31,152 nt of DNA from a virus, in UHGV virus genome UHGV-1981267, one strand, 5' to 3'. Shown here piece by piece: positions 7,827 through 28,961 of the stretch. Position numbers and translations under genes: made by a program. Below the pieces are notes generated by a model. The model was not told the DNA's origin. It did no database searches and worked only from the letters and a program-made list of their open reading frames with translations. Within the stretch, counting starts at the first letter, position 1; each line of letters opens with the position of its first letter.

Positions 7827-8790
7827 AATTATCAGTAGATTGTTCCTCTAGTAACAACTCAATTCTGCTTAGTATTTCTTTAGATATTTTTCGGCTATCA
7901 ATTTTTATAGTTACAAAATTACCTTTATATCTAGCCGTGATCCCTTCCCCATATTTTTTCTCGTCTTTTGTTTTTTCCTCGTCGCCAACTAGAACAGAGT
8001 CAGATAATATTTGTATAATCCGTGAAGCTTCTAAATCCTCGCCGTTTTTTTTAATTGCCAGAAGATGATGAGCAGCATTGCTCATGGCAGTCATGTTTTT
8101 TTTGTAGACCTTAAACAAAGAATCTCCAGCACGAGCTGACAGTTCTCCTGGATGATTGAAGATAGCTAATATATCTTTTGGTAGACCAGCTGTATTAATA
8201 CAGCGAGTGATAATATTTCTGTCTATATTTTCAGCCTCGGCTAATGCTTTAACGTTACCATCAAAGTCATTTAGCTTGCGTAAGTATCTCTTTCCTCTTT
8301 CGTATGCACTAATAGGCCTATAATCGTTACCAATTTGGGATAACCAATGCATCTGTTCATCGTCGAGATCACCTATTAAGACGCGATAGTCACATCCTGT
8401 TAATATCGCTGCTTTTCTTCTACGTGAGCCGTCAGCGACTTCAACGACTCCAGACACTTTTCTGGCGAAAGCTGGATTTTGTTGTCCAGACGTTAGAAAA
8501 GATGGGATTAAATCGGCTAGAGAGGATTCATTTAATAAATCTTGATCGCGTTCATTACCTAGCCATACCATTGTTGCCATTTCAACTTTATCTGCGGGAA
8601 TTGTCTCTAACTTAAAGTTAACATTACGTCCGCATACTGGCAAAGTTATGCTGTTACCGGTTAATGAACTCAGTTGACGTTTTAAATCACCAACCATAGG
8701 TGATACGGGCTGATGTTCAGGGGCATGATGATTATTACTCATAATGCGATTAATATCTGGAGCATTTTTTAGAAGAGAGCGCTGTTTCAT
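7825..8790 (-). CDS. sopB: Partition protein SopB (ParB family)
   Basis: 321 aa. Blocks match recalled F SopB (ITLPVCGR, GNERDQ, IPSFL-GQQ-PAF, ADGSRRRKAA, GNDYRP-SAYERG). Start overlaps sopA stop. Confidence 0.9.
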   Translation of the reverse strand: MKQRSLLKNAPDINRIMSNNHHAPEHQPVSPMVGDLKRQLSSLTGNSITLPVCGRNVNFKLETIPADKVEMATMVWLGNERDQDLLNESSLADLIPSFLTSGQQNPAFARKVSGVVEVADGSRRRKAAILTGCDYRVLIGDLDDEQMHWLSQIGNDYRPISAYERGKRYLRKLNDFDGNVKALAEAENIDRNIITRCINTAGLPKDILAIFNHPGELSARAGDSLFKVYKKNMTAMSNAAHHLLAIKKNGEDLEASRIIQILSDSVLVGDEEKTKDEKKYGEGITARYKGNFVTIKIDSRKISKEILSRIELLLEEQSTDN

Positions 8791-9956
8791 TATTCGTTCT
8801 CCCAGCGAGGTTTTATTAGATCATCAAAAATTTCTCGGCAAACAGGGTCCCATATAGAAACAGCATTTCTCCATGCATTCAATGTTGAACGTTGGTTTGC
8901 TGCTTGTTCAAATACTGTTCTCATTTTTATCTGGCCTTTACCTACTTCATCGGTAACGCGTACAACCTGACGTAATACCATTGATCCCCATGTATTTCTT
9001 ATTTGTTCTTCCATCCATCGTGATTGATTCCCTGTAGTGAGACTATATTTAGTCAGAAGTAAGCGAACGGTTGGCTCAAATCCACCTAGGTCAACGCTTT
9101 CCAATAGATCGAGAAGCATTGTGAAAAACTGTAGAACAGAAGCGTAATCAAATAATTCTGCAGGTGTAGCAACAACAATAACGTCAGCGGCACAAACAAC
9201 GTTAATGGTTCCTGTACCGAGGTTCGGAGCACTATCTATAACGATAACATCGTAGTTATCCCAAACTGATTCAATAGCTGCGCGCAGCATAAGGTGTGGA
9301 GGATGAGGCAATTTACCCTGAGCATGATATTGCATGAGATCTGTTTCTATACGATGTAAAGCTAGGCAGCTAGGGATAATGTCTAGCCCAGGCCAACATG
9401 TTGGCTTTATAGCATATTCAGCGTTATCGCGTTCTCCTAAGTAAAATGGCAGTAAAGTATCCTCGGCATGGATATGTAAATCAGGAACATAACCGTGATA
9501 CATAGAGGCCGTGCCTTGAGGATCGTTACCTTCAACCAAAAGAACACGATGACCTTGTAATGCTAACCATTGAGCTTGATGTACCGCAGACGATGTTTTA
9601 TAAACGCCGCCTTTGTGTGACATAACGGCAAGCACAACAGGGTTTTTATCTTGTGGTCGTTGGTTTGGGTTGCCAAAAACTGCTCGCATACTGTTGATTT
9701 GATCTATGGTATAACCAGCACGACGTTCAATTCTTCCTCTCATTTCAAAGTCAGGTGCAGGTAAACGCCCGCTCTTCTCAGCATCTCTAATTGCTTGAGG
9801 AGTTACACCAATTAAATCTGCTACTTCAGTTATACCCCATCGGCGGGTGATACGCCGAGCTTCAGGACTATCATCACCGAATTGAGCGATAGCAATTGCT
9901 TGGGTCATTTCTTGACCTCTCGTAACACAATCTTGCAATAACTTTTTCAAAGACAT
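8790..9956 (-). CDS. sopA: Partition ATPase SopA (ParA family)
   Basis: 388 aa with deviant Walker A (KGGVYKTS). N-terminal HTH region. Same length as F SopA. Confidence 0.92.
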   Translation of the reverse strand: MSLKKLLQDCVTRGQEMTQAIAIAQFGDDSPEARRITRRWGITEVADLIGVTPQAIRDAEKSGRLPAPDFEMRGRIERRAGYTIDQINSMRAVFGNPNQRPQDKNPVVLAVMSHKGGVYKTSSAVHQAQWLALQGHRVLLVEGNDPQGTASMYHGYVPDLHIHAEDTLLPFYLGERDNAEYAIKPTCWPGLDIIPSCLALHRIETDLMQYHAQGKLPHPPHLMLRAAIESVWDNYDVIVIDSAPNLGTGTINVVCAADVIVVATPAELFDYASVLQFFTMLLDLLESVDLGGFEPTVRLLLTKYSLTTGNQSRWMEEQIRNTWGSMVLRQVVRVTDEVGKGQIKMRTVFEQAANQRSTLNAWRNAVSIWDPVCREIFDDLIKPRWENE

Positions 9957-9977
9957 ACTGTCATCTCCAGCTTGTAA

Positions 9978-10055
9978 CTTTGCTTAATAATTAAATCTTT
10001 GCTTATTTCTAGCAAATTTGCATGAAAAAGGCAAAGCAAAACGAAAAACGCAAAG
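9978..10055 (-). promoter_or_regulatory. sop promoter/operator with CTTTGC hexamer repeats
   Basis: CTTTGC at 9978 and 9997; inverted GCAAAG at 10031 and 10050. F sopAB operator uses CTTTGC repeats bound by SopA. Confidence 0.55.
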
Positions 10056-10246
10056 GGGAATATTTGAGCTAAATCATCTTTTGTTCCCCTCCCGAAATGC
10101 ATAAAACGAACAACGATATAATCATAACTAATTGATATTTATTGTCTTTTTAAAAGAAAGGAAATCATGTAAAACTAGGGAAACATGATAAGAATCATCA
10201 ATGAGATACGTTTTCTCTATTAGTTCTCCCAATCTTACCAATACAA

Positions 10247-10390
10247 GAACATAAACAAAGAACATAAAAATAAAGTAATGATACAAACACAATAAAGAAC
10301 ATAAATAAAGAATTATAACCAATGCTAAATAAATCAGTACACAATATGAGAACATTACACCAAATGAGAACATTAATCAAGAACATAACG
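10247..10390 (+). repeat. Array of six to seven direct GAACAT(A/T)A motifs flanking telRL
   Basis: Copies at 10247, 10260, 10297, 10350, 10368, 10381 (and 10393 within the telRL arm), all same orientation, irregular spacing, very AT-rich. Confidence 0.5.
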
Positions 10391-10392
10391 AA

Positions 10393-10434
10393 ACATAATT
10401 GCCCATTATACGCGCGTATAATGGGGAATTATGT
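10393..10434. other. telRL: Telomere resolution site (telRL-like palindrome with telO core)
   Basis: 42-bp palindrome ACATAATTGCCCATTATACGC|GCGTATAATGGGGAATTATGT with one mismatch. The central 22 bp CCATTATACGCGCGTATAATGG matches my recollection of N15 telO. Immediately upstream of telN. Confidence 0.8.
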
Positions 10435-10604
10435 GCTGATTTTCAGAACAAAGTCAAGGAACAAATTTTAACGTTCCGATATTGTGTTTTTATTTATTAT
10501 CCGTTATTGTGTTCTGTTAGTTTGTGCCTAAGTTAACGCGTTATTAGTTATATTATTCTCAAATTGTGTTACGATAATCCGAGCGGATAATCAGGAGAGG
10601 AAAG

Positions 10605-12512
10605 ATGAGCAAAGTAAAAATCGGTGAATTAATAAACTCACTTGTTAGCGATGTTGAGTCAATAGATAACTCTGACCGTCCTCAAGGGGAGAAAACAAAA
10701 AAAATAAAGGCTGTTGCATTAAAATTTAAAAATGCATTATTTAATGACAAGCGAAAGTTTAGGGGGAAAGGATTAGAAAAAAGAATTACAGCCAACACAT
10801 TCAATGCCTATATGAGCAGGGCCAGAAAACGGTTTGATGATAAACTTCATCATAGCTTTGAAAAAAATATACATCGCCTATCTGAAAAGTATCCTTTATA
10901 TAATGAGGAGCTATTGTCATGGCTTTCTCTACCTGCTGCCGATATTCGCCAGAGAATGTCAGCTTTACAGGCAAAATTAAAATTAATTCTCCCTCTATCA
11001 GAAGATTTATCTAATATCAGAATTGGCGATAACAAAAGTCATAACAAGTTATTGAAATTATCAAATAAATATAAAGAGTGGCAATTCGCCATTTCTGATT
11101 TAACTAGCGATAACTGGAAAGATAAGCGCGATTATTTATATAAATTACTACAGCAAGGATCTGCCTTACTTGAGGAGTTGAATCAGCTAAAAGTTAACCA
11201 TGAGATTCTCTATCATCTTCAACTAAGCCCTGCCGAACGTGCATCTATCCAGCAACGATGGGCGGACGTTCTGCACAATAAAAAACGTAACGTGGTGGTC
11301 ATTGATTACCCTAAATATATGCAAGCTATTTACGATATTATAAATAGCCCTGCTACATTAAATAATCTAAACACTCGTTCAGGTATGGCTCCTTTGGCAT
11401 TTGCACTTGCTGCATTGTCAGGAAGACGAATGATTGAGATTATGTATCAAGGTACATTTACTGTTTCTGGTAAGTATACCGTTGATTTTTTAGGCCAAGC
11501 TAAAAAAAGAACTTCTGATGATATAACCAGAAAAATATATACATTATGCGAAGCAAAAACATTTGTTTATTTAATAAATGTACTTCGCTCATGCCCAGCA
11601 GCATCTGATTTTGATGATGTCGTTAAAGGTTATGGAGATAACGACACACGCTCTGAAAACGGACGTATTAATGCCATATTAGCAAAGGCTTTTAACCCGT
11701 GGGTTAAATCATTTTTCAAAGATGACCGCCGTGTTTATAAAGATAGTCGTGCTATTTATGCCCGTATTGCGTATGAAATGTTTTTCCGCGTAGATCCTCG
11801 TTGGAAAAACGTAGATGAAGATGTTTTCTTTATGGAAATTTTAGGCCATGACGATGAAAACACTCAATTACACTATAAGCAATTCAAGCTGGCCAACTTC
11901 TCAAAGACATGGAGGCCAAATACTGGAAACGAAAATACCAGGCTGGAAGCATTGCAGCAGCTTGATGACGAAATGCCTGGATTCGCCAGAGGAGATGCCG
12001 GGGTTCGTCTGCATAACACAGTTAAGCAGCTGGTAGAGCAGGACCCCTCTATAAAAATCACGAACAGCACTCTAAGAGCGTTCAAATTTAGCCCAACAAT
12101 GATTAGTCGATACCTAGAATTTGCTGCTGATGCTCTGGGGCAATTTGTTGGCGAAAACGGACAATGGCAACTGAAAATAGATACTCCAGAAATCGTTATG
12201 CCTGACGAAGAAGAACTGGAAGCAATACCTGAACTGGCGGATGAATTATCAGAGGATGACGATCTGGATGACGACGAAATTGAGATAGAGGAAGAGGAGG
12301 AGGAAGAGGAAGAGGAAGAGAGCGTAGAAGAACAGCAACCGCCTGCACCTTCTTCGCCTGTATCTAAGCCGGTATTTAAGCCGGTGAGAAATATTGGTGA
12401 TGGCTCATACGTTGTTGAGTTTCATTATAATGGCCAGAATTATGCGTGGTCCGGCAGTGCAAACAGCCCCATGTCAGCAATGCAGTTAGCATGGCTGACA
12501 TATTTCGGTTAA
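10605..12512 (+). CDS. telN: Protelomerase (TelN-like telomere resolvase)
   Basis: 635 aa. N-terminus MSKVKIGELIN... matches recalled N15 TelN. Strong SD AGGAGAGG. Adjacent to the tel site. C-terminus carries an acidic poly-Glu tract. Confidence 0.9.
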   Translation: MSKVKIGELINSLVSDVESIDNSDRPQGEKTKKIKAVALKFKNALFNDKRKFRGKGLEKRITANTFNAYMSRARKRFDDKLHHSFEKNIHRLSEKYPLYNEELLSWLSLPAADIRQRMSALQAKLKLILPLSEDLSNIRIGDNKSHNKLLKLSNKYKEWQFAISDLTSDNWKDKRDYLYKLLQQGSALLEELNQLKVNHEILYHLQLSPAERASIQQRWADVLHNKKRNVVVIDYPKYMQAIYDIINSPATLNNLNTRSGMAPLAFALAALSGRRMIEIMYQGTFTVSGKYTVDFLGQAKKRTSDDITRKIYTLCEAKTFVYLINVLRSCPAASDFDDVVKGYGDNDTRSENGRINAILAKAFNPWVKSFFKDDRRVYKDSRAIYARIAYEMFFRVDPRWKNVDEDVFFMEILGHDDENTQLHYKQFKLANFSKTWRPNTGNENTRLEALQQLDDEMPGFARGDAGVRLHNTVKQLVEQDPSIKITNSTLRAFKFSPTMISRYLEFAADALGQFVGENGQWQLKIDTPEIVMPDEEELEAIPELADELSEDDDLDDDEIEIEEEEEEEEEEESVEEQQPPAPSSPVSKPVFKPVRNIGDGSYVVEFHYNGQNYAWSGSANSPMSAMQLAWLTYFG

Positions 12513-12683: not shown

Positions 12684-13457
12684 CTATTTATTGGTGATTT
12701 CTGCTGGCTTTAGCTGCGCGGATAACTGTTCAAGTTTTTGAACTGCCAGTTCAAAATGCGCGGGTAACGCCTTTTCCAGATCAGAGTTAATATCGGTGAT
12801 GGGTAAATCACCACACGACATACTCCGCCTACCCCCACGAACAACATCACGCAACAACTCTCGTTCATACGTGCGCATGTTCCCCAATGCCGACTCAGCA
12901 GCCGTCAAAATCCGGCGCAGTTCTGCCGTAATTGCTGGCAAATCATCAACCGTTATGGGGTTCGGGGATGGATTACGACACGCCCGACGCAAAGCTAACC
13001 ATACACCGCTAATCCAGGCATTTCGGTACTGAAAACTTTGTGCTATATCGTTAATCAGCCCTCGCAGATACTCTTTCTGCCTCCAGTTCAACGGCTCCGC
13101 TGCTCGCATTGGCTCAGGCTCGATGTAAACGTACTCTCCATTTTTGCGAATAGAGGGCAAGACTTCGTTCGTTACCCATTTGCGAAACCGCCAAGCTGTT
13201 GTGCCTTGCTTCACCGCGTCACGGCAGCGGAGAATGAGCGTGTAAAGACCTGATTCACTGATGATATTGGCTTGACCTTGACGGCCTATGTTAAACATAG
13301 ATCGCTCATCTTCATCTAATCGAGCGATAGCTTGTGTGACATTCTGGATGCTTAAAGCATTGCAAATATCATTCGCCACAAACCACGGATCGCCGTTAAT
13401 CATCACTACACGTACCTGATGCTCTTCCTGAAAGGAAAAGACTGCTAACGCGCTCAT
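12684..13457 (-). CDS. Antirepressor (Bro-N / AntA-like N-terminal domain)
   Basis: 257 aa. N-terminal FSFQ...VRVVMINGDPWFVANDICNAL is a typical Bro-N motif. Last gene of an immA-like operon. Confidence 0.8.
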   Translation of the reverse strand: MSALAVFSFQEEHQVRVVMINGDPWFVANDICNALSIQNVTQAIARLDEDERSMFNIGRQGQANIISESGLYTLILRCRDAVKQGTTAWRFRKWVTNEVLPSIRKNGEYVYIEPEPMRAAEPLNWRQKEYLRGLINDIAQSFQYRNAWISGVWLALRRACRNPSPNPITVDDLPAITAELRRILTAAESALGNMRTYERELLRDVVRGGRRSMSCGDLPITDINSDLEKALPAHFELAVQKLEQLSAQLKPAEITNK

Positions 13458-13869: not shown

Positions 13870-14070
13870 GTCGTGCTACCACCAGAGTTCTCACGCTCTT
13901 GAATGGTGGTAGCCCAAGCGGGGGTGAGAATACCGGCAAACGAAGAAACCGGCCTGACCGAAGTCAGCCCCGCCTGAGCCACCATAAATCGGATATGCGC
14001 AGGTATATACACACAAAAAAACACGCTGGCGCGTGTTGTGCGCTTCGTTTATCCGGGTTCTCACGCCCGG
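13870..14070 (-). ncRNA. Structured leader / candidate small regulatory RNA of the immA operon (P4 CI / N15 CA RNA-like)
   Basis: On the transcribed strand: GUGAGAAC (from 14057..14064), then UUCUCACCCC (13921..13930), then GUGAGAAC (13887..13894) inside a 10-bp stem (13875..13913). The middle element is complementary to both others. Confidence 0.4.
14012..14035 (-). terminator. Intrinsic terminator inside the immA leader
   Basis: On the minus strand: CACGC-GCCA-GCGUG hairpin followed by UUUUUUUGUGU. Confidence 0.5.
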
Positions 14071-14145
14071 CTGCGGAATTTGCCGCAGCGGAGTAACTTT
14101 ACCGTCAAAACGACGCACACGTCAATAATTTGCAAAGACATTTTA

Positions 14146-18400: not shown

Positions 18401-19450
18401 GATTTCATAGCCAGTCCGCAGGCCGGTATTCCCTTTTCCTTCTGTAGCTGATTTCCGGTCATTATCCAGTGCGCAGGTGATTTTTGCCGCCGGGTACATG
18501 TTTACCAGTTGTTCCACAACATGAACCATGTTGTTAGCGGATACAGCGACAACCACAGCGTCAAAGCGTTTATCTTTTTTCGTGGCAAGCCAGATGGATG
18601 CACCAGTAGCAAAACCTTCTGTAACAGCGATGTTTTGCGCCCCTTTCAGCTCACCGATAACAAAGCAGGCACCGACGAAATCGCCGCTGGTTACGGCGCT
18701 GGTCTGGTATTTTCCACCTTGTTTGTCGATTCGCTGCCAACCAACAATACGACCATCGTAACGACCGTCCAGGTGAGCCAGAGGGATAGACATATACGTG
18801 GTTGGCCCCCTGCTCCATTTTGCGCTGTCGTGACTGGTCACGCGACGCACATCACACGAATTAAAAACGTCACGAATACCTTTTTTAATCGCATATGGCC
18901 ATGAGCCGTCTTCTGCAGGAGCATGTTCCCAAGCACTGTGGAATGCCAGCCATCCCAGCAAACGTTCATGGTCCATTTGGTTGTTTTTCAGGTCATTAAT
19001 TCGTTTTTGTTCTTCACGGCGACGACGTGCTTCGGCCTGACGTTCTATTCTTGCCCGTTCTTCTTCCGGTTGTGCGACCACGGTCGCATTATTCCGTTGT
19101 TGCTCACGGCGATATTCAGAAAACAGGAAGGAGAAACCGCTCCATGAGCCAGCATCGCTGCCTTTATGGACGAAGTTAATGAACGGGTAATCAATCCCTT
19201 TGCTGTGTTCCAGCCGGGAGTAAATTTCTACGCGTCCTTTGAGGCTCTTCTCGAGAGCTTCTGGAGATGTTTTATTGTATGAAGAGTAACGCTCAACACC
19301 CCCGCGAGGGTTGAGTTGGATGTTGTCGGAACAGGCAGACCAGTTGATACCAGCCATCTGTGCCAGCTCGGTTAGTTCATCCCGTGCTGCTTCAATTAGC
19401 GAGAACGGATCGCTGCCAAAGCGATCCGCATAGAAATCGTTTAATGTCAT
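15455..19450 (-). CDS. repA: Replication protein RepA (primase plus helicase, N15 RepA-like)
   Basis: 1331-aa ORF. Walker A GMGSGKS in the central helicase region. Size and position next to cB as in N15. Confidence 0.9.
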   Translation of the reverse strand: MTLNDFYADRFGSDPFSLIEAARDELTELAQMAGINWSACSDNIQLNPRGGVERYSSYNKTSPEALEKSLKGRVEIYSRLEHSKGIDYPFINFVHKGSDAGSWSGFSFLFSEYRREQQRNNATVVAQPEEERARIERQAEARRRREEQKRINDLKNNQMDHERLLGWLAFHSAWEHAPAEDGSWPYAIKKGIRDVFNSCDVRRVTSHDSAKWSRGPTTYMSIPLAHLDGRYDGRIVGWQRIDKQGGKYQTSAVTSGDFVGACFVIGELKGAQNIAVTEGFATGASIWLATKKDKRFDAVVVAVSANNMVHVVEQLVNMYPAAKITCALDNDRKSATEGKGNTGLRTGYEILSKFNDVRCVYPTFEDDPQMECSDFNDLHKLRGLRETARQLFATANRLKTGTDLLSLTLNRLKTIKRDNRRTFAKELLRAVDIGMLTCPVPNSPSDLFNMFCIVLREIGLENIYRATVKDHIARRLNKKCRIAQAPRSFSERITDPNKRPQHITYKRFETSVMTDDVLKYVQSLQGIVIVRAGMGSGKSTGLLRPLMHSSERGISVAHRVSLIGGLWEMMTEGKGVKADILHYQDPGYQEMAPYASKLTICINSIVKNCWQPLMRQHDYFGFDEATQGLRAVLSGRAMENPVAVFNTLIDALARTEQHPIMVDADANDLLVDLAELAMKRREELGLPAWLQIHVIELPVDLRNRETGEPIRVFYTEKDRIMTEVVKAVSNGEKIMLATDSSTFAEDVTATLRMHFPGKKFLCVNQKNKPEPEVEAFTNQPKKMVKKYDGLIYSPSISSGVSIEQKHFDRHFGMFCGEVVPSDAVQMLRRDRTAKEFIIGFDKARAKRETDPQKIERAFAQALLATAGMNGELTDVVFDGDRISMGVANTDFTRMKIKAAAIEASARNDYASNMICIMHSDGYKVSPLATDYAANDIGKDLRKEARDIVWEQTLDLHLNTETPQESEREELLKKRALTLEEQAKLVRWDIENELKLPVEEGTLKFYFDGARDKIRRYETMLLDEVTARRYDREEAAINFTYAYRQAGQWQYFVVTAMTREQADDVFKTKFLGIIDYKVKATPTVEVGARGFYALKSATLRQYFIDCGINPETMTGEATQERLKFARDNLMTAERRDLLNNVLHIGGFMTPKGKPKVPEALFKNICDSLGLKTGKRRGRDGDKRPTLRFVEPESAAFMLDILAQRQKDGLTLKTRKAEKTAIEMDRDLDLNIYMDDKTRSTNEQVQNAPHSVISEALAVLPVVVPESWAMSALSGEELATMSSWSSASIAMTFASLYLTEFMDHLSSNELRRLREYITGNSPCSYEEQGAFYG
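15736..15786. other. Candidate replication origin element inside the repA 3' region
   Basis: Inverted repeat TGGATCGCG ... CGCGATCCA flanking the AT tract CATATATATATT. Three GATC sites within about 50 bp. Confidence 0.35.
19073..19088. other. sopC-like centromere palindrome (inside repA coding sequence)
   Basis: TGCGACCACGGTCGCA: 7-bp inverted arms with 2-bp spacer. One base per arm different from the F sopC core TGGGACC-AC-GGTCCCA as recalled. Confidence 0.7.
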
Positions 19451-19504
19451 TTTTTAGCCATTCCATGCGAATTATGTTTTTTCGGGTTGAAAAAATCCGC
19501 AGGA

Positions 19505-19601
19505 GCAGCCACAATAAACGCATCTTGAATTGACGGAATCCGTCGCGTTGTTGTGGCTGCTTCCTGAAAAGGACCCGAGTTTGCCGACTCGGGTTTTTTT
19601 T
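19505..19601 (+). other. Stem-loop plus strong plus-strand intrinsic terminator in the cB-repA intergenic region
   Basis: 10-bp inverted arms GCAGCCACAA / TTGTGGCTGC (19505..19514, 19551..19560) enclosing the palindrome GACGGAATCCGTC. Then stem CCCGAGT / ACTCGGG with an 8-T run (19574..19601). Confidence 0.45.
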
Positions 19602-19695
19602 CGTCTTTTTTCTGCTGCTGTAACCTGAGTCAACCCACAGAACATATGCCCTGCATTAAACCAGATTTACAGTAAACAATAAACCCCATATTAAG

Positions 19696-20292
19696 TCATC
19701 TACCCTCAACCATGAATGATTTGATCGTTCCGACTATTTGGTGAACAAATTCAAGATCGCTTTTCCTGAAGATGGCGCGTTGTGAGTTTGTTCCATCCAG
19801 ATAGTAATTTTCATCATCAAAACGGGCCAGGCGCTGGATAGTGATATTTCCTGCAGTATCACGAACCAGAACATCCTCGCCGGGGACCAGTTCCAGCGCA
19901 GAATCGACCAGGAGAAAATCGCCTGGCTGATAGTTTCCCTGCGTAAGATTGCTGATAGTTAACGCATACACAGTATTGCGCTGGCTGATGAATGGCAGGA
20001 ATCGCTCAGTATTTGGAACCTGTCCCGGCTTCCACTCTTCATCCGGCCCACTTTCAGTTGTGCCAATAACAGGAATGCGATCAGGGTCATATTCTGTCCC
20101 ATATAGCACCCAATGCACTGGCTTGCGTAAGCACTTAGCCAGGGCAATACCTATCTCCAGTGACGGCATTACGTCGCCACGTTCTAAGTTTTGGACGCCT
20201 GCTATAGAGATATCGACAGCCTCAGCAACTTCTCGCAACGTCAGCTTCATCTCTAAACGGCGTGCTTTCAGTCGTTCGCCTCGTGTTTTCAT
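19696..20292 (-). CDS. cB: Prophage repressor CB (HTH plus LexA/S24-like C-terminal domain)
   Basis: 198 aa. N-terminal HTH (LTLREVAEAVDISIAGVQNLERG). C-terminal domain typical of CI/LexA-type repressors. Divergent from cro. Confidence 0.88.
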   Translation of the reverse strand: MKTRGERLKARRLEMKLTLREVAEAVDISIAGVQNLERGDVMPSLEIGIALAKCLRKPVHWVLYGTEYDPDRIPVIGTTESGPDEEWKPGQVPNTERFLPFISQRNTVYALTISNLTQGNYQPGDFLLVDSALELVPGEDVLVRDTAGNITIQRLARFDDENYYLDGTNSQRAIFRKSDLEFVHQIVGTIKSFMVEGR

Positions 20293-20314
20293 AGCTTAAT
20301 CATAAATGATCTTC

Positions 20315-20356
20315 TTATAGCTGGCTATAAAATTTATTTATTATAGCTGGCTTTAA
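20315..20356. promoter_or_regulatory. immB operator repeats between cB and cro
   Basis: TTATAGCTGGCTATAA (20315..20330, inverted arms TTATAGC / GCTATAA) and a second copy TTATAGCTGGCTTTAA (20341..20356). TATAAT at 20372..20377 precedes the cro ATG. Confidence 0.5.
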
Positions 20357-20383
20357 TTGTTGTTTATTGTTTATAATAACAAC

Positions 20384-20605
20384 ATGAAACCAGAAGAACT
20401 TATTCGCCATTTTGGCAGTGTAGAAAAAGCAGCGGCAGGGGTAGGTGTAACACCCGGAGCTGTTTACCAATGGTTAACCGCTGGAGAGATTCCTTCATTG
20501 CGGCAAAGCGATATTGAAGTTCGTACTGCTTATAAGCTGAAGAGTGACTTTACAACTCGGCGGGTAAAGCAGTCGATTAAGGAGAGTCGTAAGCGTGGAG
20601 CTTGA
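20384..20605 (+). CDS. cro: Cro-like HTH regulator
   Basis: ATG at 20384 gives MKPEELIRHFGSVEKAAAGVGVTPGAVYQWL... (HTH). No SD and a -10 hexamer just upstream suggest a leaderless mRNA. Track ORF begins at TTG 20357. Confidence 0.7.
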   Translation: MKPEELIRHFGSVEKAAAGVGVTPGAVYQWLTAGEIPSLRQSDIEVRTAYKLKSDFTTRRVKQSIKESRKRGA

Positions 20606-21305
20606 GTATATACGCAGCTGCGTCTCTACGGCATTGGCTGATGTTCATTATCGCCAGCGTGGCATTCTGGAGGTCCAGCTTGAGCAGATGCGTCTCGGTA
20701 GGTCAGGACGGTTTAACAATAAACCAGTCTGGTCAATCAGTGTGGGGGATGATAACTCATACGAAGTGTCCGTTCCTGCTGAGCCGGTTAGATTCCACCA
20801 GGGGAAAACATTTAAACAATCATCAATGTTGCTCACTGATATTGATTTTCAGAGCGCCAGCTGGCGCAGGGCTATTGGTCAGTTGAATAACGAGGAATCA
20901 GCCTGGCTTTATTATTGCTACGGATGCAAGCCTGATTACAACAATGATGTGATTGTTTGTCAGTGGTTATGGCTTGATTTTCTGGTTGCTCATTCGGGGG
21001 GCGGCTTTAAAAAAATGAAGGCCTCCACGAAAAAAGCCATGCGGAAATTGATTTATTACGCGGCACAGCAGGTTAAATCAGAACTTACGTGTGCTGAAGC
21101 AGTTGATGAGAGAGAACAGGACAGGCATCTGAGTTTTCTACTGAATATATCTATTGATAGCTGGAGACAAGATTATAAAGAGCGCTGGCTTTTAATTAAG
21201 TCGCGATGTCTGAGCTTAAATCGAACTGCATTATTAAATGCGGCGGAGAAGCGCAGTGAAATCATCAAACGCCATCGGGCAGGAAGTGCCATTCTGCCTT
21301 TGTAA
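20595..21305 (+). CDS. Possible late-gene antiterminator (Q-like), otherwise hypothetical
   Basis: 236-aa ORF with GTG start overlapping the cro stop. Cys cluster YYCYGC...C. Position after cro as recalled for N15 Q. No sequence match could be verified. Confidence 0.4.
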   Translation: MELEYIRSCVSTALADVHYRQRGILEVQLEQMRLGRSGRFNNKPVWSISVGDDNSYEVSVPAEPVRFHQGKTFKQSSMLLTDIDFQSASWRRAIGQLNNEESAWLYYCYGCKPDYNNDVIVCQWLWLDFLVAHSGGGFKKMKASTKKAMRKLIYYAAQQVKSELTCAEAVDEREQDRHLSFLLNISIDSWRQDYKERWLLIKSRCLSLNRTALLNAAEKRSEIIKRHRAGSAILPL

Positions 21306-21312
21306 ACAAGTT

Positions 21313-21558
21313 ATGTTCAGGAAACCGTCGAAGCCAGAATTAAGGTATTCGGGGGTAAGAAATGAATATGTTATCTGGTGTCCAACTTGTGGTTACAGGA
21401 CACGACCAGATAGTAATAAGCAGTCTGTAATTGCCGATTGGTATTTATCAAATCAGCCAGGTAATAAGCATATAGAAAATCTTTGGATTAAGCGTTACTT
21501 GGAAATCAGAGAGGGTGCGACCGTGGTCGCACAAGAAAATGAAAATAACGCCATTTAA
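21313..21558 (+). CDS. Small zinc-ribbon protein
   Basis: Internal ATG of track ORF 21238..21558. CPTCGY motif. Contains a sopC-like site at its 3' end. Confidence 0.4.
   Translation: MFRKPSKPELRYSGVRNEYVIWCPTCGYRTRPDSNKQSVIADWYLSNQPGNKHIENLWIKRYLEIREGATVVAQENENNAI
21516..21531. other. sopC-like centromere palindrome
   Basis: TGCGACCGTGGTCGCA. Confidence 0.7.
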
Positions 21559-21742
21559 GCAGGGGCCGATGACGCATGATGAAGCAGAGCGTCTTTCAGA
21601 TACTTATCGGCGGCGTGGTAAGAAAGTTCTGGTTGTTCGTTCTGATTTTTTAGGTGATGGATATTGCGTTTATGTTCATTTACCTGAATCAGAAAGAACG
21701 CCAAAACCATCCAGAACATATCAACAGAAAATTTGGGTATAG
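21539..21742 (+). CDS. Hypothetical small protein (start uncertain; alternative ATG 21569)
   Basis: Track ORF 21515..21742. No motif recognised. Confidence 0.3.
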   Translation: MKITPFKQGPMTHDEAERLSDTYRRRGKKVLVVRSDFLGDGYCVYVHLPESERTPKPSRTYQQKIWV

Positions 21743-21765
21743 ATAAACGTTGAGGAGAATTATTC

Positions 21766-22365
21766 GTGACTAATCAGATTATTTACGACAGGAAACGGTC
21801 TGATGTAATGATTGACCTTGAAACAATGGGTACTAACACATGTGCTCCAATTGTTTCTATCGGGGCAGTGTTTTTTTCTCCAGAAAGTGAGGAATTAGGT
21901 CCTACTTTTTATGTGCCAGTGAATCTCAGAAGCTCGATGTTGAATGGTGGTATCGCCGATGGTGATACCATTTTATGGTGGTTGAAACAGAGCAAGGAAG
22001 CCAGAGCCGCTATTTGTACTAATGATGCCCTTGATATTAAGGATGCACTTTTTGAATTATCACACTTTATTACTTGCCATGCATGTAATTTAAAAAAGTT
22101 GAAAGTATGGGGAAATGGAGCAACGTTCGATAATGTAATTTTACGCGGTGCTTATGAGCGCGTTGGCTTAGCCTGTCCGTGGGAATATTTTAATGATCAG
22201 GATGTTCGAACAATCGTTAATCTTGGTCAGTTTATTGGTTTTAATCCTAAAAAAGATATGCCATTTGATGGCGAACGACACAATGCCCTGGCTGATGCTA
22301 TTCATCAGGCTAAATATGTATCCGCAATTTTCTCCCGTCTTGTAAAAGGGCAAGGAGAATCGTAA
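21766..22365 (+). CDS. 3'-5' exonuclease, DnaQ-like DEDDh family
   Basis: GTG start with SD GAGGAG 8 nt upstream. Motifs IDLETMG (Exo I), GNGATFDNVIL (Exo II), ERHNALADA (Exo III). Confidence 0.75.
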   Translation: MTNQIIYDRKRSDVMIDLETMGTNTCAPIVSIGAVFFSPESEELGPTFYVPVNLRSSMLNGGIADGDTILWWLKQSKEARAAICTNDALDIKDALFELSHFITCHACNLKKLKVWGNGATFDNVILRGAYERVGLACPWEYFNDQDVRTIVNLGQFIGFNPKKDMPFDGERHNALADAIHQAKYVSAIFSRLVKGQGES

Positions 22366-22784
22366 TGGCAAAGGCTTTTACACCAGAACAGAGGGAAGAA
22401 CTGAATAAACAAATTGTGGAACTCGTGCGCCTGAATGGACGAGGAACGGTTAGGCAACTTGCGGATGAAACTGGTATTAGCCGGTGTGCTGTTAGTCGTT
22501 TATCAAGAGAGCTTGCTGCCAGTGGTGATTTGTATATCTCTGGCTCCGGGATATTTCTGTCTGCACAAGCACGCAAGGACTGGCAAAACGCCCGTAAAAA
22601 ACTATCAAGAGTAAAGCCGAAGAAATCGGTAGTGGTTGATCCAGACCTTATCTGGTCATTACCTGACGGAGAAATACGTCGTTACGACAGGCGCTTGAAC
22701 ATGATTTGTCACGATTGCCGGAAAAGTGAAGTTATGCAGCGTGTGCTGGCTTTTTATCAGGGAAATTTACAGGAGGTGGCGTAG
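22365..22784 (+). CDS. Putative DNA-binding protein (HTH-like)
   Basis: 139-aa ORF. Segment TVRQLADETGISRCAVSRLSREL resembles an HTH. Start overlaps upstream stop. Confidence 0.45.
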   Translation: MAKAFTPEQREELNKQIVELVRLNGRGTVRQLADETGISRCAVSRLSRELAASGDLYISGSGIFLSAQARKDWQNARKKLSRVKPKKSVVVDPDLIWSLPDGEIRRYDRRLNMICHDCRKSEVMQRVLAFYQGNLQEVA

Positions 22785-23074
22785 TGAATATCGACACCAC
22801 GATAACGATCGATACGGCCCTAAATATCGGTCTGGCACTTCTCGGTTGGTTTTACATCATGTTCAGTGCGGGGAAGTGGGCGGCCTCTGTTTTTCTAAAG
22901 CAGTGGGGAAAGCACCGCAAACAGGAAAGACGCCAGAAAGTGTTAGAGGCGTTCTATGACGCATTTGAACTTAGCCGCATTGAGCCAGGCACAACAGCCA
23001 AGATAGCGAAAAAAGGCGACCTGATGATAGTGATGTTCCGACAGGAGAGAGCAGAGAAAGGGGAATCAGCATGA
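22784..23074 (+). CDS. Small membrane protein
   Basis: 96-aa ORF with one hydrophobic segment (LNIGLALLGWFYIMF). Confidence 0.4.
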   Translation: MNIDTTITIDTALNIGLALLGWFYIMFSAGKWAASVFLKQWGKHRKQERRQKVLEAFYDAFELSRIEPGTTAKIAKKGDLMIVMFRQERAEKGESA

Positions 23075-23730
23075 AATTTTCCAAATTTTCTGAGTTGGTG
23101 AATCGTATTTTGTCCAACAACCACAGCCATCGTCGCGATATGGATGTAACAATCGTTATTCATTCGCCTGGCAGCATTGGTTCAACACCCTCAGTTGAGG
23201 TTCAGTCAATTCACGCTGGTTTTGATTGGGATTCCGGGAAAGTGCTGATTTTCCCAGCACAGCCACTGACTACGCTAACACCAGAACAGATTACTGATAT
23301 TACTGATAGTGTGCGCAAAGGTCAGTCCTGGCACGCATATCAGGAATACAAGAAGCATAAAGAGCAGTTGGAAAAATTGTCGATTGAACTGGATGCTGCA
23401 AAACAGCGCGTAGCAGAACTGGAAGCCAAACCTGTAAGCCAAACTTACAAGTTAACTTTTGAGCAATGGCTGGAACAGCAGCATGACAAAATTGATGTTG
23501 ATTGTGGATGCGTAAGTACTGAAATGTTTATGCACTGGATAAGGGTCGCGTATGAGGCTGGCAACTCTCCGGTAACTCCGGATGGTCATGTTCAGTTTTC
23601 TGTTTCACTTCCTGCAGCGTTTGGTGGAGATAAATATTTTATTGATGGTGTATTTCAACCTTTGAGATATGAGCGTGACTGTGAAAGGGCGGTTGTGGCC
23701 GCTGGCGGTGTAGTTAATTGGGTTAAGTAA
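23071..23730 (+). CDS. Hypothetical protein with central coiled coil
   Basis: 219-aa ORF. Heptad-like segment KEQLEKLSIELDAAKQRVAELEAK. No catalytic motif recognised. Confidence 0.5.
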   Translation: MKFSKFSELVNRILSNNHSHRRDMDVTIVIHSPGSIGSTPSVEVQSIHAGFDWDSGKVLIFPAQPLTTLTPEQITDITDSVRKGQSWHAYQEYKKHKEQLEKLSIELDAAKQRVAELEAKPVSQTYKLTFEQWLEQQHDKIDVDCGCVSTEMFMHWIRVAYEAGNSPVTPDGHVQFSVSLPAAFGGDKYFIDGVFQPLRYERDCERAVVAAGGVVNWVK

Positions 23731-23745
23731 TTTTCAGGAGGATTT

Positions 23746-24072
23746 ATGGCGCTGACACCGGCAGAACGGCAAAGGAGACGCAGGGAACGGTTGAAGAAGG
23801 AAGGCACATCAAGACGGGACTGGATTCTAGAACCTGACGAGTTACGTATGTTGGGGGAAATTTGTGTATTGCGTAGACCAGGGCGAGTTCCATATTCGGA
23901 GAACGAAGTCATTGGTTTGCTGATCAGGAAAAACTATAAGGAGCTGCAGAAGCAGCTATCTACTACTTGCCCGCGATGTGGTCAAAAAATGCCTGTTTCA
24001 GAATGCATTTTTGATGGCGAAGGGTCATGCCACCTTACAACCACGAGGCTGAAACTTGCGCTCAAAGCGTGA
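23746..24072 (+). CDS. Hypothetical basic protein with zinc-ribbon-like CPRCG...C...C
   Basis: 108-aa ORF. SD AGGAGG upstream. Arg-rich N-terminus. Confidence 0.5.
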   Translation: MALTPAERQRRRRERLKKEGTSRRDWILEPDELRMLGEICVLRRPGRVPYSENEVIGLLIRKNYKELQKQLSTTCPRCGQKMPVSECIFDGEGSCHLTTTRLKLALKA

Positions 24073-24090
24073 CTGGTCACGGAGGGATAA

Positions 24091-24333
24091 ATGGATAAAA
24101 AGGCATTGCTTTTTGAAATGATACGAAAACGGAGCGAAAAGAGCTTTTCTGATGGTGGTGATGGGTTTGTTTTCGCTTCGATGCTTGCTTTTGATGTTGG
24201 GTTAAATAGCAGAATTGTTAAAAGGATGCTTGATTCTGCTGTCCGTACTGGACTTCTTGAGAAAGTTGATCGTGGCATAGGGAGAGAGCATAAGTATCGG
24301 GCCACACAGCAGTTTACGCAGTTAATTCATTGA
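24091..24333 (+). CDS. Hypothetical protein
   Basis: 80-aa ORF with SD GGAGGG upstream. Confidence 0.45.
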   Translation: MDKKALLFEMIRKRSEKSFSDGGDGFVFASMLAFDVGLNSRIVKRMLDSAVRTGLLEKVDRGIGREHKYRATQQFTQLIH

Positions 24334-24415
24334 AAATTGACCGTAAAGTTTGAGTTTTACCCTGTAATTTTATACAGTACAAACAACCTTTTTTAGTTAA
24401 ATGGTATGAGATTTA

Positions 24416-24619
24416 ATGTCTGAAGCAGCCGTATCAACTCTTGAACAACTCGATTCAAATTTAAGAGATATTGACGCCATTCTGGATCTGGTTAGCGTCA
24501 CCCTGGCTTCTCCAGAAGCCAGCCTACATATTGGTGAGGTTTCACGACTCATCAACATGTCGCGAGAGATTGCCCAGCATTGTCAGAAAACTATCGCTGT
24601 TGAGCGTTCACATCATTGA
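24416..24619 (+). CDS. Hypothetical protein
   Basis: 67-aa ORF. Convergent with the toxin-antitoxin pair. Confidence 0.4.
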   Translation: MSEAAVSTLEQLDSNLRDIDAILDLVSVTLASPEASLHIGEVSRLINMSREIAQHCQKTIAVERSHH

Positions 24620-24661
24620 TGCACACCCCGCCCTTCTGGACGGGGTAGTAAAAGAGTCTAA

Positions 24662-24949
24662 TTAATAAACAGCGCGAATATCGATGGCTGCGCCGCAGGC
24701 ATGAGCATATTTAGCCAAAGTTTTCATACTTGCCCCTAAAGGATTGCTTTCCAGGCGGCTGATGGCTGACGGTCGTAACCCCATTCGTTCAGCCAGAGCT
24801 GATTTCGTTAAACCTGCTCTTTCCCTCATTTCGTATAACATTTCGACCATCTCCAGCTCTTTGTCGGCCTCTTCATATCCTTTGACGGCTTCTGGAGTGT
24901 TGAGGAGTTTTTCTTTTACTTCGTTAAACGGGATGCCTTTCGCTTTCAT
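24662..24949 (-). CDS. HTH antitoxin (HigA / Xre-like)
   Basis: 95 aa. HTH LTKSALAERMGLRPSAISRLES. Immediately downstream of, and overlapping, the toxin gene. Confidence 0.8.
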   Translation of the reverse strand: MKAKGIPFNEVKEKLLNTPEAVKGYEEADKELEMVEMLYEMRERAGLTKSALAERMGLRPSAISRLESNPLGASMKTLAKYAHACGAAIDIRAVY

Positions 24950-25260: not shown

Positions 25261-25425
25261 ATTATAGCCTCCACATCCATAAAATACACCAAAACAAGAA
25301 AACAATGTAAATTAAAAATTTCACTAAAAAGCGAAAAATAACACTGGATGTGTTCGTTTGGCAGAGTTACAGTTCGTGTCATTGAGGGGCAATAACCCAC
25401 TAACTATATGAATTTGGAGGATATT

Positions 25426-25647: not shown

Positions 25648-25660
25648 TTAGAGAGGCGTT

Positions 25661-25888: not shown

Positions 25889-25894
25889 AAACTG

Positions 25895-25910: not shown

Positions 25911-25930
25911 CAGCACAAAAACGAAAAAGC

Positions 25931-28950: not shown

Positions 28951-28961
28951 CATTAAATACC

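What the first reader, a model, noticed from the sequence alone, without database searches (positions are those of the whole stretch)
10247..10434. Telomere-resolution site with a conserved 22-bp core but divergent arms, beside an array of GAACATAA repeats
The 42-bp palindrome at 10393..10434 has the 22-bp core CCATTATACGCGCGTATAATGG, which matches my recollection of N15 telO. The flanking arms differ from the N15 telRL arms I recall. Upstream are six to seven direct GAACAT(A/T)A motifs in a very AT-rich tract. They may be accessory binding sites for TelN or partition proteins, or promoter elements of the divergent sop and telN promoters. The presence of telRL inside a contiguous sequence means this is the unresolved (virion or replicative) form.
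Basis: partly seen in the sequence, partly recalled or inferred. Interest (0 to 1): 0.5.

Follow-up and report, generated by a model that had tools for sequence, protein, structure and literature searches.

The report
Telomere site of N15-like phage-plasmid
This is the hairpin-telomere resolution site of an N15-like linear plasmid-prophage of E. coli, and the GAACATAA repeats beside it are the already described, conserved "tos" flank repeats, so the locus is an ordinary new member of a known system.

Summary
A 42-bp palindrome lies at 10393-10434, with 20 of 21 arm pairs complementary. Its 22-bp core (10403-10424) is identical to N15 telO. It sits between sopA (minus strand) and an intact protelomerase gene.

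Six exact GAACATWA copies, all on the + strand, lie in 10247-10388. About 0.07 are expected from local shuffles.

The repeats are not peculiar to this element. Their AACAY cores occur at the same distances from the cleavage centre in N15, and partly in phiKO2, although the surrounding sequence is only about 50% identical. Inverted copies (ATTGTGTT) lie on the telN side at +75, +100 and +157 in all three clades. This is the tos region described for N15: degenerate copies of the outer-arm motif on both flanks.

Partition-protein sites are elsewhere. The SopA operator (CTTTGC hexamers) is at 9978-10055, and five SopB centromere-like palindromes lie at 19-29 kb.

The most likely function is accessory binding of TelN, for resolution efficiency, end protection or telN autoregulation. 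This is inferred and has not been shown for any member.

A contiguous telRL does not prove an unresolved molecule, because assemblies of hairpin-ended plasmids often show it.

Verdict: new member of a known kind, low interest.

The parts
10403..10424 (.). telO, the 22-bp perfect palindrome CCATTATACGCGCGTATAATGG. The cleavage centre is 10413|10414.
   Evidence: Identical to N15 telO inside the annotated N15 inverted repeat. An exact scan of IMG/VR found 37 loci with it.
10393..10434 (.). 42-bp imperfect palindrome: telO plus the inner arms ACATAATT / AATTATGT. The one mismatch is at 10401/10426.
   Evidence: The mismatched position varies (G/C/T/A) among near-identical relatives.
10386..10441 (.). 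56-bp equivalent of N15 telRL, 46/56 identical to N15. The sop-side outer arm is TAACGAA instead of TATCAGC.
   Evidence: The variant arm is conserved in 7 distinct close relatives. It also occurs as a telLL-type inverted duplication in pG749_3.
10247..10388 (+). Sop-side repeat array. It has six exact GAACATWA copies (10247, 10260, 10297, 10350, 10368, 10381), a degenerate GAATTATA at 10310 and AACACAAT at 10286. Three 22-nt bipartite units start at 10246, 10296 and 10367.
   Evidence: The AACA cores of five of the six exact copies are 82-95% conserved in ten N15/phiKO2-clade arms, and the sixth (10368) 75%. Non-motif columns are 38% conserved. Distances from the centre are conserved.
10181..10188 (+). 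Outlying sop-side copy AAACATGA, 232-233 bp from the centre.
   Evidence: The AACA core is 97% conserved across distant arms. It lies at 233 bp in both the window clade and the N15 clade.
10481..10488 (-). telN-side inverted copy (AACACAAT on the - strand), 75 bp from the centre.
   Evidence: Present at 75/76 bp in the window, N15 and phiKO2 clades.
10506..10513 (-). telN-side inverted copy (GAACACAAT on the - strand), 100 bp from the centre.
   Evidence: Invariant distance of 100 bp in all three clades. In Pantoea lineage L052 the copy here follows that lineage's own arm motif.
10563..10570 (-). telN-side distal inverted copy (TAACACAAT on the - strand), 157 bp from the centre. It overlaps the candidate telN promoter.
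   Evidence: The block TTGTGTTA(C/T)GAT is conserved in all clades. Related GTTACGAT blocks occur before the tel gene in PY54 and in L050, L052 and L053.
10567..10575 (+). Candidate extended -10 element of the telN promoter (TGTTACGAT), 30 nt upstream of the telN start codon region.
   Evidence: Read directly from the sequence and from conservation. The consensus scan did not call it. Inferred only.
10445..10466 (+). Pair AGAACAAAG..GGAACAAAT just right of the telN-side arm, in the same (not inverted) orientation as the sop-side units.
   Evidence: N15 has GAGAACATAAGCGCAGAACAAT at the same place. Function unknown.
10605..12512 (+). telN, the protelomerase gene (635 aa).
   Evidence: E = 2.5e-295 to TelK 2V6E, with Tyr424 in the motif LHYKQF. 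Pfam TelK_N, muzzle, catalytic and stirrup domains. 77% identical to N15 TelN.
8790..9956 (-). sopA (ParA-type ATPase), transcribed away from the tel site.
   Evidence: Annotated as sopA in the matching plasmids.
9978..10055 (.). SopA operator: CTTTGC at 9978 and 9997, GCAAAT at 10012, GCAAAG at 10031 and 10050. Spacing is 19-bp start-to-start and 28-bp spacers.
   Evidence: Sequence. The spacing rules for F, N15 and phiKO2 are given in PMC8465637. The hexamers are invariant in all 27 arms.

Best explanation
The locus is telRL, the telomere-resolution site of an N15-like (Ravinvirus-type) linear plasmid-prophage of Escherichia. It lies inside the element's roughly 365-400-bp tos region, about 10181/10222 to 10586.

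Mechanism at the core. The adjacent TelN dimer binds the telO palindrome plus the arms and makes staggered cuts around 10413|10414. It then reseals each half into a covalently closed hairpin. This yields the sop-side end (telR in prophage nomenclature) and the telN-side end (telL).

The repeats. The GAACATAA copies are the sop-side reiterations of the outer-arm motif (consensus RAACAYAAT; read from the other side, ATTRTGTT). Every copy points towards the cleavage centre. Three inverted copies lie on the telN side.

Most likely function. The copies are low-affinity docking sites for further TelN molecules, probably through the stirrup (CTD1) domain that contacts the outer arm. Three consequences would follow:
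- TelN is concentrated at the junction or at the hairpin.
- A subtelomeric nucleoprotein complex forms.
- Through the distal telN-side copy, which overlaps the -10 region, telN transcription is tied to TelN occupancy.

Shown here: the identity of telO; the gene context; an intact TelN; enrichment, polarity and position-specific conservation of the repeats; and their homology with the N15 tos region.

Inferred: that TelN binds the flank copies, and what that binding achieves.
For: Identity of the site:
- telO is 22/22 and telRL 46/56 identical to N15.
- The order sopB-sopA / tel / telN is as in N15 and phiKO2.
- TelN has four TelK domains and the catalytic Tyr.
- Relatives occur as telLL/telRR inverted duplications or as contigs that end at this centre, as expected for hairpin ends.
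- PhiR46_1, 97.7% identical on the telN side, is deposited with telL and telR annotated at this site.

Repeats are real and constrained:
- 6 copies against 0.07 expected.
- AACAY pointing towards versus away from the centre is 9:0 in the window, 9:0 in N15 and 5-11: 0-1 in all 27 distinct sop-side arms. On the telN side it is 3-6 towards and 0-2 away in 25 of 26 arms; the exception is L042, with 1.
- Distances from the centre are conserved to the base pair. On the sop side they are 233, 167, 154, 116-119, 106, 63/64, 45 (in the window clade and phiKO2, absent from N15-clade arms) and 32. On the telN side they are 157, 100 and 75/76.
- Motif columns are 63% identical to the window in distant arms, against 38% for other columns. 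Only 15 of 5000 circular shifts reach that difference.

Link to TelN:
- The copies resemble positions 15-22 of the arms (AACATAAT / CACATAAT).
- In more distant lineages the flank copies partly follow the lineage's own arm. PY54 has arms CACCTATT/AACCTATT and flanks GTAACCCAT. In Pantoea L052 the arm is CACCAAT and the copy at +100 is AACCAAT. In L053 the arm and two flank copies share GTTACGAT.

Literature:
- N15's natural target is a 310-bp region with degenerate copies L1/L2 and R1/R2 of the arm motifs, and TelN CTD1 binding to them is described as 'conceivable' (PMC12624138).
- The N15 tos PCR primers map to window positions of about 10222-10586 (PMC2847241; alignment).
- A flanking inverted repeat was proposed to matter in vivo for PY54 (PMC10612081).
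- TelK monomers slide on DNA and bind the target preferentially (PMC3575837).
Against: - No experiment in the literature I could read shows TelN bound to the flank copies. PMC12624138 reports that CTD1 is dispensable for end protection.
- The 56-bp telRL alone is sufficient for processing by N15 TelN (PMC3540006).
- The P840 telRL is processed in vivo without its flanking inverted repeat (PMC10612081).
- The covariation test across lineages is not clean. PY54 flanks also contain 5 near-matches to the N15 arm motif.
- The copy number is very asymmetric, about 9 on the sop side and 3 on the telN side. Simple symmetric TelN loading does not explain this.
- The pair at 10445-10466 has the 'wrong' orientation.
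Confidence: 0.7

Rival explanations
1. The repeats bind a protein other than TelN. This could be a host nucleoid protein attracted to AT-rich, A-tract DNA (H-NS, Fis, IHF) or an unidentified phage protein. It would organise or silence the subtelomeric DNA, or regulate the divergent sop and telN promoters.
For: The tract has 25.5% GC with a strong A/T strand skew. The copy number is asymmetric, about 9 against 3. CTD1 of TelN is dispensable for end protection (PMC12624138). TelN binding to the flank copies has never been demonstrated.
Against: The conserved part is a specific AACAY core at base-pair-conserved distances, while the AT-rich spacers diverge freely. The polarity inverts exactly at the TelN cleavage centre. 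The motif equals the outer arm of the TelN site and partly follows it in PY54, L052 and L053. I saw no IHF consensus in the array on inspection.
Confidence: 0.17
2. The repeats are partition sites, either a SopA operator extension or a SopB centromere.
Against: The SopA hexamers CTTTGC/GCAAAG, with the canonical 13-bp intervals and 28-bp spacer, lie at 9978-10055. They are invariant in all relatives. Five copies of TGCGACCACGGTCGCA, a 2-mismatch variant of the F sopC core, lie at 19073-29170 against 0.09 expected. GAACATAA resembles neither. The array begins about 190 bp beyond the operator.
Confidence: 0.03
3. The repeats are functionless low-complexity or slippage products of an AT-rich spacer, or part of a small ORF on the minus strand.
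For: The tract is AT-rich. ORFs of 81 and 62 aa overlap it on the - strand.
Against: The AACA cores are 75-97% conserved at fixed positions in clades that share only about 50% identity here. The ORFs differ in frame and length between clades and are absent in N15 and phiKO2. No Rfam family matches the region.
Confidence: 0.03

Closest known systems
N15 telRL / tos (telomerase occupancy site) with TelN
   Same: - telO is identical (22 bp).
- The position between sopA and telN is the same.
- The AACAY flank copies sit at the same distances from the centre: 233, 167, 154, about 117, 106, 64 and 32 on the sop side, and 157, 100 and 76 on the telN side.
- The distal copy overlaps TGTTACGAT upstream of telN, as in N15.
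- TelN is 77% identical.
   Different: - The arms carry ACATAAT instead of ACACAAT.
- The sop-side outer arm is CGAA instead of CAGC, so dyad symmetry is 42 bp rather than 56 bp.
- The flank copies are mostly the T variant (GAACATAA).
- The sop-side intergenic region is only about 53% identical and 30 bp shorter.
phiKO2 telRL with TelK (crystal structure 2V6E)
   Same: - telO is identical.
- TelN here is about 80% identical to TelK over the crystallised 538 residues, including the stirrup domain.
- phiKO2 itself has one ACACAA arm and one ACATAA arm, so the C/T difference lies within what this enzyme family tolerates.
- The telN-side copies are at 157, 100 and 76.
   Different: The sop-side copies in phiKO2 lie at 199, 186, 128, 120, 63 and 45, and are mostly TAACA rather than GAACA. 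The intergenic region is 60 bp longer.
PY54 pal (42-bp palindrome) with flanking inverted repeats
   Same: - Central TACGCGCGTA.
- A palindrome of about 42-50 bp.
- Flank copies resemble the outer arm and point to the centre.
- GGGTTACGATAA lies just upstream of the tel gene.
   Different: The Tel protein is only 43% identical. The arm motif is AACCTATT and the flank motif GTAACCCAT. The left neighbour is icd, not sopA.
F-plasmid / N15 SopA operator and sopC centromere
   Same: Both are present in the same window, at 9978-10055 and in five dispersed palindromes.
   Different: They are distinct motifs at distinct places. The GAACATAA array is not one of them.

Membership tests
N15/phiKO2-type protelomerase target (telRL) | 22-bp telO palindrome CCATTATACGCGCGTATAATGG with a central (CG)3 | tested here: met
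   Exact match at 10403-10424. Aligned with the annotated N15 repeat.
N15/phiKO2-type protelomerase target (telRL) | Inverted arm repeats flanking telO (14 bp each in N15, separated from telO by non-symmetric bases) | tested here: inconclusive
   The inner 8 bp (ACATAATT) are symmetric. The telN-side outer arm is N15-like. The sop-side outer arm is changed at 4 of 6 positions, so only 42 of 56 bp are symmetric. The variant is conserved, and it occurs at a telLL duplication in pG749_3, so it is probably functional.
N15/phiKO2-type protelomerase target (telRL) | Adjacent gene for a protelomerase with a catalytic tyrosine | tested here: met
   10605-12512. E = 2.5e-295 to TelK 2V6E, Tyr424 in LHYKQF, four TelK Pfam domains.
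N15/phiKO2-type protelomerase target (telRL) | Cleavage and rejoining into two hairpin ends by the cognate enzyme | not testable with these tools
   Indirect evidence only. Relatives are assembled as telLL/telRR inverted duplications or as contigs that end at the centre. The PhiR46_1 record is annotated with telL and telR.
tos (telomerase occupancy site) of N15 | Degenerate copies of the arm motif in both flanks, over about 310-400 bp, in inverted orientation about telRL | tested here: met
   There are 9 copies of AACAY towards the centre on the sop side and 3 on the telN side, with none pointing away. The region aligns with the N15 tos amplicon defined by the primers in PMC2847241.
tos (telomerase occupancy site) of N15 | Positional homology of the copies with those of N15 | tested here: met
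   Same distances from the centre in the window and N15 clades. Motif columns are 63% conserved against 38% for the rest.
tos (telomerase occupancy site) of N15 | Occupancy of the flank copies by TelN | not testable with these tools
   Described as 'conceivable', not shown, in PMC12624138.
SopA (ParA) operator of F/N15 type | CTTTGC hexamers at 13-bp intervals plus an inverted hexamer after a 28-bp spacer | tested here: not met
   These features are found at 9978-10055, not in 10247-10388.
SopB centromere (sopC-like) | 16-bp palindrome related to TGGGACCACGGTCCCA | tested here: not met
   Five copies of TGCGACCACGGTCGCA lie at 19073-29170. None is near the array.

The most novel reading that the evidence does not exclude
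The flank copies may form a polar, multi-site TelN loading platform, a bacterial 'subtelomere'. Its spacing has been held to the base pair across N15, phiKO2 and this clade. It is deliberately asymmetric, with about 9 copies at the sop-side end and 3 at the telN-side end. On this reading the two hairpin ends of the prophage would be packaged, resolved or protected differently, and the distal telN-side copy would make TelN its own repressor. The literature describes only 'at least two degenerate copies' per side and has no binding data.
Probability: 0.35. Interest if true: 0.45.

Novelty: new member of a known kind. Interest (0 to 1): 0.2.

Why it matters
As it stands it matters little. It correctly places the telomere of one more E. 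coli / E. albertii N15-like phage-plasmid. Relatives 94-99% identical over parts of it are already public, usually with the tel site unannotated and often mis-assembled as circles or inverted duplications.

The useful by-product is comparative. The flank copies are more numerous than the two per side cited for N15. They are strictly polar and positionally conserved while the spacers diverge. This gives a precise mutagenesis map for testing whether TelN builds a higher-order end-protection or autoregulatory complex, a question raised but left open in the 2025 work on TelN and Mre11-Rad50.

The naturally asymmetric arm (42-bp symmetry) also indicates which outer-arm positions TelN tolerates. That is relevant to the use of TelN/telRL for making closed linear DNA.

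Tried and rejected
- Literature access. The two papers that define tos (Deneke et al. 2000, 2002), Ravin & Lane 1999, Aihara et al. 2007 and Casjens et al. 2004 are not held. The L1/L2/R1/R2 correspondence therefore rests on a secondary description (PMC12624138) and on the tos primers in PMC2847241.
- Apparent mosaic breakpoint. At first there seemed to be a breakpoint at 10393 against phage YDC107_1 and many plasmids. It is mostly an artefact: those records carry telRR or telLL inverted duplications, or end at the telomere.
- Covariation matrix. I counted each lineage's arm 8-mer in every lineage's flanks. The result was suggestive for PY54 (4 against 0.9 expected) but not clean, since PY54 flanks also match the N15 arm motif. 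It was uninformative for VP882, whose arm geometry differs.
- Promoter scan. The consensus scan gave 2 hits against 4.1 expected, both on the minus strand, so it gives no support for promoter elements in the array.
- Coding potential. The 81-aa and 62-aa minus-strand ORFs over the array are not conserved.
- RNA families. Rfam gave nothing in 9950-10620.
- Excess divergence. The sop-side tos region looked too diverged (91% while sopA is 100% identical to L036). Module exchange explains this, because telN synonymous-level divergence is similar. Subtelomeric hypermutation is not needed.

Full report
**What is in the sequence**

The finding lies in the 648-bp intergenic region between sopA (8790-9956, minus strand) and a 635-codon gene (10605-12512, plus strand).

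Positions 10393-10413 and 10414-10434 form a palindrome with 20 of 21 pairs complementary. The mismatch is G10401 against G10426. It is the longest palindrome in the 31-kb window. As single-stranded DNA it folds at -15.7 kcal/mol, z = -6.3 against shuffles.

The 22-bp core CCATTATACGCGCGTATAATGG is at 10403-10424.

GAACATWA occurs six times between 10247 and 10388, always on the + strand. The whole window holds 10 copies against 2.7 expected. Dinucleotide shuffles of the AT-rich tract itself give 0.06-0.07 copies, and none of 2000 shuffles reaches six.

The tract has 25.5% GC and an A-over-T skew of +0.40. The skew changes sign to the right of the palindrome.

**What the element is**

The right-hand gene encodes a protelomerase.
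- It matches TelK of phiKO2 (PDB 2V6E) at E = 2.5e-295 over residues 1-536, and is 81% identical to the TelK crystal construct.
- It carries the tyrosine of the LHYKQF motif at position 424.
- It has the four Pfam domains TelK_N, muzzle, catalytic and stirrup.
- It is 77% identical to N15 TelN.

The left-hand genes are sopA and sopB.

The N15 record annotates a 56-bp inverted repeat 'containing cut site for prophage formation' at the homologous place. Aligned with it, the window is 22/22 identical in telO and 46/56 identical over the whole repeat.

The window belongs to a common group of Escherichia phage-plasmids.
- Eight PLSDB plasmids from E. coli and E. albertii cover the whole intergenic region at 84-94.5% identity.
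- Other records match the telN side at up to 99.3%.
- Phage PhiR46_1, 97.7% identical on the telN side, is deposited in prophage form. Its ends are annotated at this site: telL at the telN end and telR at the ParA end.

**The arms**

'Divergent arms' overstates the case.
- The inner arm is ACATAATT on both sides, against ACACAATT in N15.
- phiKO2 itself has one arm of each kind, so this difference is within what the enzyme family accepts.
- The telN-side outer arm (GTGCTGAT) is as in N15.
- Only the sop-side outer arm has changed, from TATCAGC to TAACGAA. This cuts the dyad symmetry from 56 to 42 bp.

The variant arm is conserved in seven distinct close relatives, while a sister group keeps ATCAGC. 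In plasmid pG749_3 the variant arm is assembled as a perfect inverted duplication around the same centre. Reads that run around a hairpin end produce exactly that. The variant arm therefore appears to work as a telomere in vivo. This is an inference from an assembly, not an experiment.

The mismatched position next to telO is G, C, T or A among near-identical relatives. It corresponds to the non-symmetric bases of the N15 site.

**The repeats are conserved, polar and positioned**

I collected every IMG/VR contig with an exact telO (37 loci), plus N15, phiKO2 and four plasmids. Flanks were sorted by the gene they lead to. This gave 27 distinct sop-side arms and 26 distinct telN-side arms.

The N15 and phiKO2 clades are only 45-53% identical to the window on the sop side. 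Even so, the alignment shows islands of conservation that coincide with the repeats.

An alignment-free count shows the polarity. For AACAY pointing towards versus away from the cleavage centre:
- The sop side gives 9:0 in the window, 9:0 in N15, and 5-11 : 0-1 in all 27 arms.
- The telN side gives 3-6 towards and 0-2 away in 25 of the 26 arms. The exception is L042, with one copy.

The distances from the centre to the copies are conserved to the base pair.
- Sop side, window and N15 clades: 233, 167, 154, 116-119, 106, 63/64 and 32. A further copy at 45 is present in the window clade and in phiKO2 but absent from N15-clade arms.
- telN side, window, N15 and phiKO2 clades: 157, 100 and 75/76.

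In ten distant arms the motif columns are 63% identical to the window, against 38% for other columns. Only 15 of 5000 circular shifts of the mask reach that difference. The AACA cores of five of the six exact copies are 82-95% conserved, and that of the sixth (10368) 75%.

The array is therefore functional and ancestral to the whole group, not a peculiarity of this element. Within it, the repeat finder shows three 22-nt bipartite units (AGAACAYAA-N4-AGAACAYAA) at 10246, 10296 and 10367.

**Relation to what is known**

PMC12624138 summarises the work of Deneke et al. The natural TelN target in N15 is about 310 bp. The 56-bp telRL contains arm motifs L3/R3, and at least two degenerate copies (L1, L2 / R1, R2) lie in the flanks. 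It is 'conceivable' that the TelN CTD1 domain binds them.

The N15 tos primers given in PMC2847241 map, through the alignment, to about 10222-10586 of the window. That interval contains all six GAACATWA copies and the three inverted copies.

My count finds more conserved copies than the two per side cited: about eight plus the arm on the sop side, and three on the telN side.

A caution on names. In 'telRL' the sop side is the prophage right end, so I use 'sop side' and 'telN side' throughout.

**Which protein binds**

Partition proteins are accounted for elsewhere.
- CTTTGC at 9978 and 9997, GCAAAT at 10012, and GCAAAG at 10031 and 10050 reproduce the 13-bp intervals and 28-bp spacer of the SopA operator of F, N15 and phiKO2 (PMC8465637). 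These hexamers are invariant in all arms.
- Five copies of TGCGACCACGGTCGCA lie at 19073, 21516, 25895, 28935 and 29155, against 0.09 expected. This is a two-mismatch variant of the F sopC core, which I recalled from memory.

The minus-strand ORFs over the array are not conserved, and no Rfam family matches there.

TelN remains the best candidate, for three reasons.
- The copies (RAACAYAAT) match positions 15-22 of the arms (AACATAAT / CACATAAT).
- They invert polarity exactly at the TelN cleavage centre.
- In more distant lineages the flank copies partly follow the lineage's own arm.

The lineage comparisons are as follows.
- PY54 has arms CACCTATT/AACCTATT and flank copies GTAACCCAT.
- In a Pantoea lineage (TelN 56% identical) the arm is CACCAAT and the copy at +100 is AACCAAT.
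- In another lineage (55%) the arm and two flank copies share GTTACGAT.

This covariation is suggestive only. A formal cross-count was not clean.

**Likely mechanism**

The following is established for N15 and TelK and transferred here by homology. TelN dimerises on telO plus the arms, cuts both strands in a staggered way, and reseals each half into a hairpin.

The following is inferred. The flank copies act as weak, oriented docking sites for further TelN molecules. TelK monomers slide along DNA and bind the target preferentially before dimerising (PMC3575837). An oriented array would therefore raise the local concentration of TelN. It could also seed the higher-order end complex proposed in PMC12624138.

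The distal telN-side copy (10563-10570) overlaps TGTTACGAT (10567-10575). This is an extended -10-like element conserved in all clades. Related GTTACGAT blocks precede the tel gene in PY54 and in three of the four 55-60% lineages. Occupancy of that copy would repress telN.

Several observations count against a necessary role.
- The 56-bp site suffices for processing (PMC3540006).
- CTD1 is dispensable for protection.
- P840 telRL needs no flanking repeat in vivo.
- The 9-versus-3 asymmetry, and a same-orientation pair at 10445-10466, are unexplained.

**The 'unresolved form' claim**

The window is colinear with the N15 virion map, so the sequence as written is the telRL junction. This says little about the molecule that was sequenced.
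- Eight relatives are deposited as circles with the same junction.
- Others appear as telLL or telRR inverted duplications. These include phage YDC107_1, where the duplication created spurious 'protelomerase domain protein' genes, and pG749_3.
- Others are contigs that stop 9-30 nt past the centre.

**Verdict**

This is a correctly spotted telomere-resolution site with its tos flank repeats, in a new but ordinary member of the N15-like phage-plasmids. I put the identification at about 0.97 and TelN binding to the repeats at about 0.6. The 0.7 given for the best explanation covers the two claims together. Interest is low (0.2). The comparative map of polar, position-conserved copies is a modest refinement that makes the open question of TelN higher-order assembly directly testable.

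Noticed in passing
window 9978-10055: SopA (ParA) operator. CTTTGC is at 9978 and 9997, GCAAAT at 10012, and GCAAAG at 10031 and 10050. The spacing (19-bp start-to-start, 28-bp spacers) is that described for F, N15 and phiKO2. The hexamers are invariant in all 27 relatives' arms.
   Followed up: partly
window 19073-19088, 21516-21531, 25895-25910, 28935-28950, 29155-29170: Five identical copies of TGCGACCACGGTCGCA, a two-mismatch variant of the F sopC core palindrome, against 0.09 expected. They are probably the dispersed SopB centromere sites of this element, as in N15.
   Followed up: partly
window 13902-14102 (- strand): Rfam hits above gathering score: C4 antisense RNA (13902-13989), isrK (14016-14089) and the c4 a1/b1 targets (14050-14102). 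This is an N15 immA-like secondary immunity (antirepressor control) region downstream of a Bro-N gene (12684-13457).
   Followed up: no
window 10057-10402 versus 10425-12512; loci L036, L037, L029: The modules on either side of the tel site have different histories. Against L037, the sop-side tos is 78% and sopA 94% identical, but the telN-side tos is 97% and telN 98%. Against L036, sopA is 100% but the sop-side tos is 91%. A breakpoint at the tel site is what a single crossover between two linear prophages would leave; this is an inference.
   Followed up: partly
L005 (CP025712.1 YDC107_1), L049 (NZ_CP014491.1 pG749_3), L010, L018, L028, L034, L038: Public records of relatives contain perfect inverted duplications (telRR or telLL) around the tel centre. 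This is very probably read-through of hairpin ends by the assembler. In YDC107_1 it yields duplicated, fragmented 'protelomerase' CDS. pG749_3 is called circular at 62.6 kb and has TACGTGCGTA at the centre.
   Followed up: partly
window 10567-10575: TGTTACGAT resembles an extended -10 element for telN and is conserved in the window, N15 and phiKO2 clades, with related GTTACGAT blocks in PY54 and three of the four 55-60% lineages. It overlaps the distal inverted repeat copy. The consensus promoter scan did not report it.
   Followed up: partly
window 10445-10466: The pair AGAACAAAG / GGAACAAAT lies immediately right of the telN-side arm. It has the same orientation as the sop-side units, that is, pointing away from the centre. 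It is conserved as GAGAACATAAGCGCAGAACAAT in N15. No explanation.
   Followed up: no
window 10401 and 10426: The single mismatched pair of the palindrome is hypervariable (G/C/T/A) among relatives that are otherwise 92-99% identical in the arms. This suggests TelN makes no base-specific contact there.
   Followed up: partly
L050-L053 (contigs encoding TelN homologues 55-60% identical, from NCBI and ENA assemblies incl. Xenorhabdus and Pantoea): Contigs of 18-43 kb. Three (L050, L052, L053) begin 9-30 nt before a tel palindrome centre, so they are probably complete or near-complete linear prophages cut at the telomere. No palindrome was found at the start of L051. Two of them have a different core (AAATATACGCGCGTATATTT) with perfect 54-60-bp palindromes.
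   Followed up: partly
window 10428-10457 (- strand): A sigma-70-like match (TTGACT-18-CATAAT, 10 of 12) is oriented to read from the telN side across the tel site. The number of such matches in the region is below the shuffle expectation, so it is probably chance.
   Followed up: no
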